Origin: Escherichia coli
GTDB lineage: Bacteria > Pseudomonadota > Gammaproteobacteria > Enterobacterales > Enterobacteriaceae
NCBI RefSeq assembly: GCF_048403405.1
Contig: NZ_CP183129.1
Reading direction: 5' to 3' (one strand)
DNA: 64,000 nucleotides
Positions 12,001 through 15,000 of this stretch are shown here, in pieces; position 1 is the stretch's first letter, and each line of letters opens with the position of its first letter. Made by a program: the position numbers.

Positions 12001-15000
12001 GGCGTGATTAATGTGCTGGATCACACCATGAAAGCTGTAGTCGATGACCGCCTTATGGGCGGCATAGCCACGATAAACCTCCAGTTGATGGCGTAACCGA
12101 CAGCCGTTTGGGCCAAATCCCATATGGTCAATAATGGTTGTTGTACCGCCACACGCAGCTGCGCGGGTACCGGTAAAAAAATCATCACAACTGCGCGCGA
12201 TGCCGACATCAATATTGAAATGCGTATGGACATCCACGCCGCCAGGGAAAACGTAACAGCCAGTGGCATCAATTTCTTCATACGGGAGCTGCGGCGAAAT
12301 ATTGTTGCCCAACTGGCGAACAATCCCGCTTTCAATCAGCAAATCCTGTTTGGCTTGTCCATCTGCGTTAACGACAGTGCCGTTTTTGATCAATACGCGC
12401 ATAGCAAACTCCAAAAACCCTCCGGCGAACCGGAGGGGAATAAGTGAAGAGTAATTATTCGGTTGCCAGCCAGCTTAACGGGATTGCCGCGTACATCGCG
12501 GCACAGGTCACCAGGTGAGATTTCCAGGTTTTTTCGTTAGGTGCATGCGCTTCAGGTTCTTTACCTGGGCCAAAGCCGATCACCGGAATGCCGTGACGGC
12601 CCATGATAGATACGCCGTTAGTTGAGAAGGTCCACTTATCAACAACCGGCGCTTTGCCAAACAGCCCTTCGTAGGCATTCACCAGTGCTTTAACGGTGAA
12701 GTGATCTTCTTCCACTTTCCAGGTCGGGAAGTAGCATTCGGTTGGGTATACCAGGCCAGTCCAGGACGGACGGTCGTAGTTGTACATAGAAACAACCGCG
12801 TTAGCTTTCTGTACCGCAGGCAGGGCGCGGATTTCATCCAGCGCGCCTTCCCAGGTTTCGCCCCAGGTCAGACGGCGGTCAATAGAGACGGCGCAGCTAT
12901 CTGCTACTGCGCAACGGCTTGGGGATGTGAAGAAGATTTCAGAAACGGTGAGGGTGCCTTTGCCGAGGAATTCGTCATAACCCAGACGTTGGGAGAGTTC
13001 TTGTAATTCGCCAAGAATCGGACCCATTTTGAAAATGGCGTTGTCACCGCGTTCTGGTGCAGAACCGTGGCAGCTAACACCCTGAACATCAATACGAATT
13101 TCCATACGACCGCGCTGACCACGGTATACCTGGCAGTCGGTTGGTTCGGTACTGACCACAAATTCCGGGCGAATGCCGGATTGTTCAATAATGTACTGCC
13201 AGCACAGGCCGTCGCAGTCTTCTTCCTGCACCGTACCGGTAACCAGCAGGGTATATTCATCTTCCAGACCGAGGTCTTTAATGATTTTACCGGCATAAAC
13301 CATAGATGCCATGCCGCCTTCCTGGTCGGAAGTACCGCGACCACCGATCAGCTCATCAGTTTCCATGCCTTCGTACGGATCGAAGTCCCAGTTTTTGATG
13401 TTGCCAATGCCGACGGTATCAATATGAGCGTCCATTGCCACCAGACGCGGGCCGTGGCCGATATAACCGAGAACGTTGCCCATCGGGTCGATTTCAACTT
13501 TATCGAAGCCGACTTTTTCCATCTCTTCTTTAATACGATGTACTACGCGTTTCTCGTCGCAGCTTTCACTGGGAATAGCAACCATGTCGCGCAGGAAGCG
13601 AGTCATATCCGCCTGGTAATCTTTTGCTTTTTCAAGAATCAGTTTGAATGGAATATTCTTAGCCATTATTTTTCTCCAGATTTTTTACTCCCCGTTTTGC
13701 AGGGAGCAGTTCCAATAGGGTGATTAAGGTGCTACAGCGTGTTTGCCTTCCCAGACAACTTCGCGGTAGTGCTTCACGTCGGTGTCGCCTTCAGTGCTGA
13801 TAACCAGCACCACGGCATCTTTGTTCAGCGCCAGTTTTTCCATCAGGCTTTGACGTTGTGGGTGATAATGAACCGCTGCGAGAACGCCCAAACCGACAGC
13901 GCCGGATTCGCCGGAGATGATGCGCGGGTCGTTGCCGTACGGATTACCCAGCACGCGCATACCTAATGCGGCAACGCTGTCCTGGCAGGAGATGAATTGG
14001 GTGGCGCAGTTACGTAGGATTTCCCAGCCCAGCGGGTTAGGTTCGCCACAGGCCAGGCCTGCCATGATGGTGGCCATATCACCGCCAACGTTGACGATGT
14101 CGCCTTTGACGCCAGAGCGATAAATACAGTCAGCTTTGTCAGGTTCAACAATAATGCTGTGCAGATTTTGCGGGCTGTAGACGTCGACCAGATAACCCAG
14201 CACACCACCAGCCATTGCACCGACACCGGCTTGCAGCAGAACGTGCGTCGGGGTTACGCCCATTTCACGCATTTGCTCGACGGCTTCATCTGCCAGTGTT
14301 GCGTAGCCTTGCATGATCCAGGTTGGGATTTTGGTGTAACCTTCCCAGGCGGTATCTTGCACCACTTCCCAGCCGTGCTGCTGCGCGTGTTGCATGGTCA
14401 GGCGAACGGTATCGTCATAGTTCATATCCGTGACGATGCACTCGGCACCGAGGTTCAGAATGGCGTCAACGCGTTCCTGAGCAGAACCTTTCGGCATGTA
14501 AATCACCGCATTCTGTCCGAGTTGCTGTGCTGCCCACGCCACACCGCGCCCGTGGTTGCCGTCGGTGGTGGTCGCGAAGGTCATTTTTTCGCCGATGGCA
14601 TTTTTCAGATGCTCAAATGACAGCGTTTCGATATCAAGATGATATTTTTCACACAATAATTGAGCGATGGCGTACGCACCGCCGAGCATTTTGAAGGCGT
14701 TCAGACCGAATCGTTTTGATTCGTCTTTGACGAGAATTTTCTTCACACCAAAAAGGTTTGCGAGATCGTCCAGCGCACAAAGCGGTGTTGGGCGATAACC
14801 AGCAATTTTCTGATGGAACTGGCGCGCCAGTTTGGCCTGGCTTTGCGAAAAGAGCGGTGATGTTTCGCCGTTGAAAAATTTGTTATCGGCGATATCAATC
14901 TTCAATGAGAAAACGGACATATCCTATCCTTTTGGCCTCTGGAAATAGAGGGCCGACCAGCTGATCGGCCCGAGGGGTTATTTCACGCGTTCTTGCGCTT

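What the first reader, a model, noticed from the sequence alone, without database searches (positions are those of the whole stretch)
14950..14971. Stable hairpin in the short ygeW-ygeX spacer
GGGCCGA-ccagctga-TCGGCCC lies inside a presumed polycistronic unit (ygeW to yqeA). It has no strong U-tract on the transcribed minus strand, so it is more likely an mRNA processing or stability element, or a partial attenuator setting differential expression of ygeW versus downstream genes, than a full terminator.
Basis: seen in the sequence. Interest (0 to 1): 0.2.

Follow-up and report, generated by a model that had tools for sequence, protein, structure and literature searches.

The report
Conserved RNA hairpin after ygeW
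A short, stable RNA hairpin sits just after the E. coli ygeW gene, inside the uric-acid degradation gene cluster. Related bacteria keep it by compensating mutations, so it probably protects or trims the ygeW part of the messenger RNA; it is a real but ordinary kind of element.

Summary
At window 14950..14971 the transcribed (minus) strand reads GGGCCGAUC-AGCU-GGUCGGCCC. This is 9 pairs (one G-U) with a 4-nt loop and a free energy of -16.9 kcal/mol. It starts 6 nt after the ygeW TAA, is followed by UCUAUUUCC, and lies 29 nt upstream of the ygeX AUG.

The window is E. coli. The spacer is single-copy, has no Rfam match, and carries no annotated feature in K-12.

All 26 gammaproteobacterial relatives with a 40-80 nt ygeW-ygeX spacer have a G+C-rich hairpin at the same place. 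Their stem sequences differ and include compensatory changes. The sense strand folds better than the antisense strand, so this is an RNA-level element.

The U-tract is not conserved: relatives average about 3 U in 8, and E. coli has 5 in 8. The hairpin is also too close to the stop codon for efficient termination. Conserved hairpins also follow ygeX and ygeY.

Best reading (confidence 0.45): a protective 3' stem-loop that favours the ygeW segment, with at most weak, ribosome-repressed termination. I found no 3'-end mapping or transcript-decay data for this operon, so the function is inferred. It is a new member of a known kind, of low to moderate interest.

The parts
14978..16168 (-). ygeW coding sequence (knotted carbamoyltransferase); stop codon TAA at 14978..14980
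   Evidence: ORF list; RefSeq annotation of identical DNA
14972..14977 (-). C-rich 6-nt linker CCCCUC between the ygeW stop codon and the stem; a ribosome sitting on the stop codon should cover it
   Evidence: Sequence. Stop-to-hairpin distance has a median of 7 nt in relatives. The 8 nt upstream of the stem are 81% pyrimidine on average in relatives.
14950..14971 (-). Core hairpin GGGCCGAUC-AGCU-GGUCGGCCC: 9 pairs including one U-G, 4-nt loop, -16.9 kcal/mol
   Evidence: Conserved with compensatory changes. The sense strand folds better than the antisense strand. The E. coli N96 variant keeps the pairing.
14941..14949 (-). Tail UCUAUUUCC: a weak, interrupted U-tract
   Evidence: Tails in relatives average about 3 U in 8, and only E. 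coli and L041 reach 5 in 8.
14936..14939 (-). GAGG, predicted to pair with CCUC (14972..14975) as an outer 4-pair extension of the hairpin; low confidence and not conserved
   Evidence: Minimum-energy fold; alternatives lie within 0.5 kcal/mol
14927..14931 (-). Shine-Dalgarno-like AAGGA, 6 nt before the ygeX AUG; not occluded by the hairpin
   Evidence: Sequence. AAGGA is conserved in alignment A1. Tail-to-SD pairing is no higher than the nulls.
13724..14920 (-). ygeX/dpaL coding sequence (diaminopropionate ammonia-lyase)
13686..13708 (-). Second intercistronic hairpin (ygeX-ygeY spacer): UGCUCCCUG-CAAAA-CGGGGAGUA, -13.0 kcal/mol, followed by an A-rich tail
   Evidence: a hairpin is present in 22 of 24 relatives
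12418..12437 (-). Third intercistronic hairpin (ygeY-hyuA spacer): CCCUCCGG-UUCG-CCGGAGGG followed by UUUUUGGAG
   Evidence: a hairpin is present in 26 of 26 relatives, mean -20 kcal/mol, tail not consistently U-rich
10005..10030 (-). Canonical-looking terminator after yqeA (10 pairs, then AUUUUCAUUU); the likely end of the transcription unit
16259..16274 (-). Sigma-54-type promoter-like site TGGCACACTTATTGTT, 91 nt upstream of the ygeW ATG; the likely start of the unit
   Evidence: 1 mismatch to TGGCAC-N5-TTGCW. A sigma-54 genomic SELEX peak lies in the ygeV/ygeW spacer (PMC8743547).

Best explanation
The hairpin is a conserved RNA stem-loop marking the 3' boundary of the ygeW cistron. That cistron lies in an mRNA that most likely runs from a sigma-54 promoter upstream of ygeW through ygeX, ygeY and hyuA to the terminator after yqeA.

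Proposed mechanism (inferred):
1. RNA polymerase mostly reads through. The U-tract is weak, and the ribosome finishing ygeW covers the 5' arm of the stem.
2. The downstream part of the mRNA is later cut or its transcription ends.
3. The 3'-to-5' exonucleases then stall at this G+C-rich stem.
4. RNA ending at the hairpin, carrying only ygeW, therefore outlasts the rest, and more YgeW is made than YgeX.

When ygeW is poorly translated, a small fraction of transcripts may also terminate at the UCUAUUUCC tail. Similar conserved hairpins after ygeX and ygeY would give a graded, staircase-like transcript profile.

Shown here: the structure, its conservation, its strand specificity, and the lack of a conserved U-tract. 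Inferred: the exonuclease barrier and its effect on expression.
For: Structure and position
- The hairpin exists and is stable.
- All 26 relatives with 40-80 nt spacers have a hairpin, mean -18 kcal/mol, starting a median of 7 nt after the stop codon. Their stem sequences differ.

Covariation
- On the 21-sequence alignment, 84.6% of cells pair, against 16-52% when the partner is slid by 1-3 columns.
- 4 of 9 pairs have changes on both sides. Pair 17-31 switches C-G to U-A in 8 sequences, and pair 19-29 switches G-C to A-U in 3.
- 0 of 500 shuffles reach the observed pairing or covariation score.

Strand specificity
- The sense strand folds better than the antisense strand in 17 relatives and worse in 7 (Wilcoxon p = 0.0025).
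- The most divergent E. coli allele I retrieved changes the loop and turns one G-C into a sense-strand G-U.

Against termination as the conserved function
- The U-tract is not conserved: about 3 U in 8.
- Stop-proximal terminators are repressed by ribosomes (PMC4824070).

Context
- Hairpins are also conserved at the next two junctions: 22 of 24 and 26 of 26 relatives. This matches the published pattern of consecutive protective hairpins in menBCE and the malE-malF model (PMC5927463).
- No promoter-like site was found for ygeX.
- Erwinia mallotivora has only a 13-nt spacer, which implies co-transcription there.
- In most relatives the hairpin keeps a pair probability of at least 0.8 in long sequence contexts (19-22 of 26).
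Against: - No 3'-end, half-life or coverage data for this operon were found, so the effect on expression is untested.
- E. coli has the most U-rich tail of the Enterobacterales relatives (5 in 8) and the terminator scan lists the site. Real partial termination in E. coli is therefore not excluded.
- With 60 nt or more of flank, the equilibrium fold in E. coli often replaces the hairpin with pairing to ygeW codons at 15014..15037. The pair probability drops to 0.08-0.45, and the alternative is 1.6 kcal/mol better.
- The relatives are phylogenetically related, so the p-values overstate independence.
- I could not set a baseline for how often unrelated co-directional junctions carry such hairpins.
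- The published protective structures of PMC5927463 mostly lie inside the downstream coding sequence, not in the spacer.
Confidence: 0.45

Rival explanations
1. Leaky intrinsic terminator (internal attenuator). The hairpin plus UCUAUUUCC releases a fraction of polymerases after ygeW. This lowers transcription of ygeX through yqeA, and the termination efficiency depends on how closely ribosomes follow the polymerase.
For: The terminator scan lists the site: 9 pairs, 7 G-C, and 5 T in the 8-base window. In more distant taxa ygeW is often followed by a canonical hairpin with a U-run, and Photobacterium spacers contain one. The E. coli tail is the most U-rich among the Enterobacterales relatives.
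Against: The U-tract is interrupted (longest run 3, starting at the fifth base) and is not conserved, at about 3 U in 8 across relatives. The stem starts 6 nt after the stop codon, where even the strong tR2 terminator is almost fully repressed (PMC4824070). The hairpins at the other two junctions are conserved without a consistent U-run either.
Confidence: 0.25
2. Conserved local structure with no effect on the ygeW/ygeX ratio. Two versions: a folding insulator that keeps the spacer locally structured so the ygeX ribosome-binding site stays free, or a slowly decaying relic of an ancestral ygeW terminator.
For: The ygeX Shine-Dalgarno sequence lies outside the hairpin. ygeW is followed by a true terminator in many distant lineages. 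Stable hairpins occur at all three junctions regardless of tail sequence.
Against: Compensatory changes and G-U substitutions indicate ongoing selection for pairing, which argues against the relic version. A -17 kcal/mol G+C-rich stem is expected from general knowledge of E. coli RNA decay to impede 3' exonucleases.
Confidence: 0.18
3. Full terminator of a single-gene ygeW unit, with ygeX-yqeA transcribed from a separate promoter inside the 3' end of ygeW.
For: A table in PMC8743547 lists ygeW as a single-gene operon. The hairpin directly follows the stop codon.
Against: No sigma-70-like or convincing sigma-54-like site precedes ygeX. The U-tract is weak. The spacer is only 57 nt, and 13 nt in Erwinia. 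ygeW, ygeX, ygeY and hyuA are listed in the same YgeV co-expression set (PMC12133099). The cluster is treated as one operon in 10.1101/2022.12.12.520169.
Confidence: 0.07
4. DNA-level palindrome: a binding site for a dimeric protein, or a copy of a dispersed repeat such as REP/BIME.
For: It is a near-perfect inverted repeat in DNA.
Against: It is single-copy in every E. coli genome that has it. The arm sequences are not conserved, only the pairing. Wobble pairs occur on the sense strand only.
Confidence: 0.03

Closest known systems
Protective 3' stem-loops of differentially decaying operons: the malE-malF intercistronic structure, and the consecutive hairpins after menB and menC (Dar and Sorek 2018, PMC5927463)
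   Same: A stable stem-loop at the 3' boundary of an upstream cistron inside a polycistronic mRNA. The structure is conserved across enterobacteria. Several such hairpins occur in series in one operon.
   Different: Function here is not measured. The malE-malF element is built from REP repeats, while this one is single-copy. Most structures in that study lie inside the downstream coding sequence, whereas this one lies in the spacer.
Canonical intrinsic (Rho-independent) terminators and intra-operon partial terminators
   Same: A G+C-rich stem of 9 pairs with a 4-nt loop, directly after a stop codon, followed by a pyrimidine- and U-rich stretch.
   Different: The U-tract is interrupted and not conserved. 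The hairpin lies 6 nt from the stop codon, where ribosomes repress termination. A co-directional gene follows with no promoter found.
Selective RNA processing and stabilisation stem-loops of the Clostridium cellulolyticum cip-cel operon (PMC4423207)
   Same: Intergenic stem-loops at the 3' ends of cistrons, proposed to set transcript stoichiometry within one operon.
   Different: A different phylum with a different RNase set. No processing sites have been mapped here.
REP/BIME repeated extragenic palindromes of E. coli
   Same: An extragenic G+C-rich palindrome between co-directional genes.
   Different: Not repeated: one place per genome in 5174 genomes. From my own knowledge, it has no resemblance to the REP consensus.

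Membership tests
Canonical intrinsic terminator | G+C-rich stem-loop (about 5-14 pairs, loop 3-8 nt) | tested here: met
   9 pairs, 7 G-C, 4-nt loop, -16.9 kcal/mol
Canonical intrinsic terminator | Run of U immediately after the stem | tested here: inconclusive
   UCUAUUUC has 5 U in 8 and passes the scan's loose rule. But it is interrupted, the longest run is 3, and relatives average about 3 in 8.
Canonical intrinsic terminator | RNA 3' ends and polymerase release at the U-tract | not testable with these tools
   No 3'-end data for ygeW were found in the supplements searched; others were not held as text
Canonical intrinsic terminator | Placed where termination can act (far enough from a translated stop codon, at the end of a unit) | tested here: not met
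   The stem starts 6 nt after TAA. tR2 is almost fully repressed at 8-9 bp and reaches its maximum beyond about 30 bp. ygeX follows 29 nt later with no promoter-like site.
Protective 3' stem-loop (differential operon decay) | Stable structure at the 3' boundary of the upstream, stabilised cistron | tested here: met
Protective 3' stem-loop (differential operon decay) | Structure conserved in related species | tested here: met
   26 of 26 relatives; compensatory changes; the slid-partner control falls to 16-52% pairing
Protective 3' stem-loop (differential operon decay) | The upstream segment is more abundant and longer-lived than the downstream one, with 3' ends at the foot of the stem | not testable with these tools
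   No expression or decay data for this operon were found
REP/BIME repeat | Many dispersed copies per genome | tested here: not met
   One place per genome in 5174 genomes
Any curated RNA family (Rfam 15) | Match to a covariance model | tested here: not met
   0 matches at E <= 1 in window 9000..19000
Shine-Dalgarno-sequestering or translational-coupling structure | Pairing that occludes the downstream ribosome-binding site | tested here: not met
   The probability that the SD window pairs with the tail is 0.31, against nulls of 0.25 and 0.34 (not significant); in E. coli it is 0.01

The most novel reading that the evidence does not exclude
The three conserved, U-tract-independent hairpins after ygeW, ygeX and ygeY together form an RNA-encoded programme. 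It would set a graded transcript and enzyme stoichiometry for the anaerobic uric-acid (2,8-dioxopurine) degradation operon across Enterobacterales, favouring the thermodynamically unfavourable YgeW step. Editing these hairpins would then change flux through the pathway, for example in engineered uricolytic probiotics.
Probability: 0.3. Interest if true: 0.4.

Novelty: new member of a known kind. Interest (0 to 1): 0.2.

Why it matters
The ygeW-yqeA genes were recently shown to carry out anaerobic uric-acid degradation in gut bacteria and are being engineered into probiotics. Their transcript architecture is undescribed.

If this hairpin and its two sister hairpins set relative enzyme levels, they are simple handles for tuning the pathway. 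They would also explain why a promoter swap alone may not raise all enzymes equally.

More generally, this is a clean comparative example. Pairing is conserved at an intercistronic hairpin while the U-tract is not, which argues for a function after transcription and against termination.

Beyond that it is an ordinary element.

Tried and rejected
- **Rfam scan** of 9000..19000 at E <= 1: no match.
- **Dispersed repeat (REP/BIME):** rejected, one copy per genome.
- **Anti-Shine-Dalgarno role of the pyrimidine-rich tail:** pairing with the ygeX ribosome-binding site is no higher than with random or shuffled tails.
- **Recoding (readthrough or frameshift) stimulated by a hairpin 6 nt after the stop:** rejected from the sequence. 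The in-frame continuation hits UAG after 17 codons, there is no slippery site, and spacer lengths in relatives are not multiples of 3.
- **SECIS element:** rejected, because the stop codon is UAA and not UGA.
- **Separate ygeX promoter:** no sigma-70-like site on the minus strand between 14921 and 15300. Sigma-54-like matches are at chance level except the one upstream of ygeW.
- **Conserved alternative (antiterminator-like) pairing:** E. coli has a near-isoenergetic competitor in ygeW codons 15014..15037. In 19-22 of 26 relatives the hairpin stays dominant, so the competitor is not conserved.
- **Published 3'-end maps and expression tables:** no ygeW/ygeX entries in the supplements held, and none held for two other papers. 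The RNA-seq of the promoter-swap strain is only a volcano plot.
- **Baseline frequency of hairpins at unrelated co-directional junctions:** only 4 usable junctions were found in the DNA I held, so no baseline could be given.
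Full report
**What is there**

The window is E. coli chromosome. The stretch 14800..15100 is found in 5174 of 5426 complete E. coli genomes, lying under ygeW and dpaL (= ygeX).

The genes lie on the minus strand:
- ygeW 14978..16168
- ygeX 13724..14920
- ygeY 12455..13666
- hyuA 11017..12402
- yqeA 10037..10969

The reported inverted repeat is at exactly 14950..14971. On the transcribed strand the RNA reads UAA-CCCCUC-GGGCCGAUC-AGCU-GGUCGGCCC-UCUAUUUCCAGAGGCCAAAAGGAUAGGAU-AUG. The stem therefore has 9 pairs, one of them a U-G wobble, and a 4-nt loop. It starts 6 nt after the ygeW stop codon and ends 29 nt before the ygeX start codon.

The core folds at -16.9 kcal/mol. The 71-nt context folds at -24.3 kcal/mol with z = -2.0. 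None of 40 dinucleotide shuffles of the spacer gives as good a hairpin. The K-12 sequence is identical, and RefSeq annotates nothing in the spacer; the hairpin is NC_000913.3 3007459..3007480.

**What it is not**

- No Rfam family matches anywhere in 9000..19000.
- It is not a dispersed repeat. A sensitive search with the 56-nt spacer finds one place per genome in 5174 genomes, and 5098 of these are at least 99% identical.
- It is not a SECIS element (the stop is UAA) and not a recoding signal. The in-frame continuation meets UAG, and spacer lengths in relatives are not multiples of three.

**Comparative evidence**

A scan of one genome per species for YgeW relatives returned 80 loci. In about 38 gammaproteobacterial loci ygeX directly follows ygeW.

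Every one of the 26 spacers of 40-80 nt contains a G+C-rich hairpin a few bases after the ygeW stop codon. The mean is -18 kcal/mol and the median stop-to-stem distance is 7 nt. The stem sequences differ: GGCCGACC/GGUCGGCC, GGCUGGCC/GGCCAGCC, GCCGGCC/GGCCGGC, CCCGGCCGG/CCGGCCGGG, CGGGAACACC/GGUGUUCCCG and others.

On an alignment of 21 Enterobacterales spacers, counted:
- The named 9-pair helix is paired in 84.6% of cells, against 16-52% when the 3' partner is slid by 1-3 columns.
- Four pairs show changes on both sides. C-G to U-A occurs in 8 sequences at pair 17-31, and G-C to A-U in 3 sequences at pair 19-29.
- No shuffle of 500 reaches the observed pairing or covariation score. The measure that counts pairs with double changes is not exceptional, at 118 of 500.

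RNAalifold independently recovers the central five pairs. Across all spacers only 31 of 1040 shuffles give an equally good hairpin.

The sense strand folds better than the antisense strand in 17 loci and worse in 7 (Wilcoxon p = 0.0025). This is expected if G-U pairs are tolerated in the mRNA. The sequences are related, so this p-value overstates independence.

The most divergent E. coli allele I retrieved (strain N96) differs in the loop (AGCU to GACA) and turns one G-C into a sense-strand G-U, leaving the helix intact.

In 19-22 of the 26 relatives the hairpin keeps a pair probability of at least 0.8 even when 60-150 nt of flanking coding sequence is included.

**Is it a terminator?**

The simple scan lists it: 9 pairs, then TCTATTTCCA. 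Three things argue that termination is not its conserved job.

1. The U-tract is interrupted in E. coli and not conserved. The first 8 bases after the stem hold about 3 U on average. Only E. coli and one Photobacterium reach 5 (my count from the tails printed).
2. The stem begins 6 nt after a translated stop codon. In the published position series for terminator tR2, termination was almost fully repressed at 8-9 bp from the stop codon and reached its maximum only beyond about 30 bp (PMC4824070).
3. ygeX follows after 29 nt with a good AAGGA ribosome-binding site. No sigma-70-like site precedes it. The only good sigma-54-type match in the area is TGGCACACTTATTGTT at 16259..16274, 91 nt upstream of ygeW, where a sigma-54 SELEX peak was reported (PMC8743547).

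In Erwinia mallotivora the ygeW-ygeX spacer is 13 nt with no hairpin, so the two genes are surely co-transcribed there. In distant phyla, where ygeX does not follow, ygeW is often followed by a canonical hairpin plus U-run. The enterobacterial hairpin may therefore descend from a true terminator.

**The neighbours**

The same analysis of the next two junctions shows the hairpin is not alone.
- The ygeX-ygeY spacer has UGCUCCCUG-CAAAA-CGGGGAGUA at 13686..13708, -13.0 kcal/mol with an A-rich tail. A hairpin occurs there in 22 of 24 relatives.
- The ygeY-hyuA spacer has CCCUCCGG-UUCG-CCGGAGGG at 12418..12437, followed by UUUUUGGAG. A hairpin occurs there in 26 of 26 relatives (mean -20 kcal/mol), again without a consistently U-rich tail.
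- The hyuA-yqeA spacer has none in E. coli.
- A canonical-looking terminator follows yqeA at 10005..10030.

At all three junctions the sense strand folds better than the antisense strand.

**Mechanism**

The pattern is stable hairpins at successive cistron boundaries, with pairing conserved and U-tracts not. This matches the published class of protective 3' structures in differentially decaying operons. In the malE-malF model and in menBCE (consecutive hairpins after menB and menC), an endonucleolytic cut downstream exposes the RNA to 3'-to-5' exonucleases, which stall at the stem. The upstream cistron then outlasts the rest (PMC5927463). A similar logic is described for the cip-cel operon (PMC4423207).

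I therefore take the hairpin to be chiefly a 3' protective stem-loop for the ygeW segment, with at most weak, ribosome-repressed termination in E. coli (confidence 0.45).

A functional rationale is available but indirect. In vitro reconstitution used ten times more YgeW than YgeX (0.2 versus 0.02 mg/mL). The YgeW phosphorolysis is described as thermodynamically unfavourable.

**Caveats**

- No 3'-end, coverage or half-life data for this operon were found. The supplements of three 3'-end or decay studies hold no ygeW/ygeX entry, two others are not held, and the one relevant RNA-seq is shown only as a volcano plot.
- In E. coli, equilibrium folds with 60 nt or more of flank often replace the hairpin with pairing between the hairpin region and ygeW codons 15014..15037. 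The energies are -50.2 versus -48.6 kcal/mol, and the pair probability falls to 0.08-0.45. Ribosomes on ygeW should prevent that pairing, and it is not conserved.
- I could not establish how common such hairpins are at unrelated junctions.

**Rivals**

| Explanation | Confidence |
|---|---|
| Leaky terminator as the main function | 0.25 |
| Conserved structure with no effect on the expression ratio, or a relic terminator | 0.18 |
| Full terminator with a separate ygeX promoter | 0.07 |
| DNA-level palindrome | 0.03 |

An anti-Shine-Dalgarno role for the pyrimidine-rich tail was tested and rejected.

**Verdict**

It is an unannotated new member of a well-known kind of element. A specialist would not be surprised. 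Interest is 0.2, rising to about 0.4 if the three hairpins are shown to set enzyme stoichiometry in the uric-acid pathway.

Noticed in passing
window 13686..13708 (minus strand): The ygeX-ygeY spacer holds a hairpin, UGCUCCCUG-CAAAA-CGGGGAGUA (-13.0 kcal/mol), followed by an A-rich tail. A hairpin is present at this junction in 22 of 24 relatives.
   Followed up: partly
window 12418..12437 (minus strand): The ygeY-hyuA spacer holds a terminator-like hairpin, CCCUCCGG-UUCG-CCGGAGGG, then UUUUUGGAG. The hyuA ribosome-binding site is embedded in the tail. The hairpin is conserved in 26 of 26 relatives, but the U-run is not.
   Followed up: partly
window 16259..16274 (minus strand): A sigma-54-type promoter-like site, TGGCACACTTATTGTT, lies 91 nt upstream of the ygeW ATG and next to the divergent sigma-54 activator gene ygeV. 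This agrees with a published sigma-54 SELEX peak in this spacer (PMC8743547).
   Followed up: partly
window 15014..15037 (minus strand, inside ygeW): In E. coli the ygeW codons for AKPGALLE are complementary to both arms of the hairpin. They give a competing fold 1.6 kcal/mol better than the hairpin fold. The competitor is absent in most relatives. It could make hairpin formation depend on ygeW translation in E. coli only.
   Followed up: partly
window 14941..14949 and 14972..14977; relatives L002-L051: Both flanks of the hairpin are strikingly pyrimidine-rich across relatives: 81% in the 8 nt upstream and 72% in the 12 nt downstream. Pairing with the ygeX ribosome-binding site does not explain this, so it remains unexplained.
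   Followed up: partly
window 14936..14951; L002 and L004 spacers: E. coli, Citrobacter sp. R56 and Klebsiella indica can form a small second hairpin just after the main one: CUCU/AGAG, CUCCA/UGGAG and CUCCG/CGGAG, with apparently compensating changes. Its loop is the U-rich 'tail'. It is weak in E. coli.
   Followed up: partly
L017-L022 (Aeromonas), L029-L034, L041 (Photobacterium): In most of these loci the ygeW-ygeX spacers are longer (115-188 nt; 77 nt in L041). They hold two structures, and in Photobacterium the second is a canonical hairpin plus U-run. Photobacterium ygeX appears to start with GTG.
   Followed up: no
L037 (Erwinia mallotivora): The ygeW-ygeX spacer is only 13 nt and has no hairpin. 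This is the one relative that lacks the element.
   Followed up: no
window 10005..10030 (minus strand): A canonical-looking terminator (10 pairs, then AUUUUCAUUU) follows yqeA, which is convergent with yqeB. It is the likely end of the unit.
   Followed up: no
window 14800..15100: 252 of 5426 complete E. coli genomes lack this stretch altogether, and one genome carries a copy on a plasmid.
   Followed up: no
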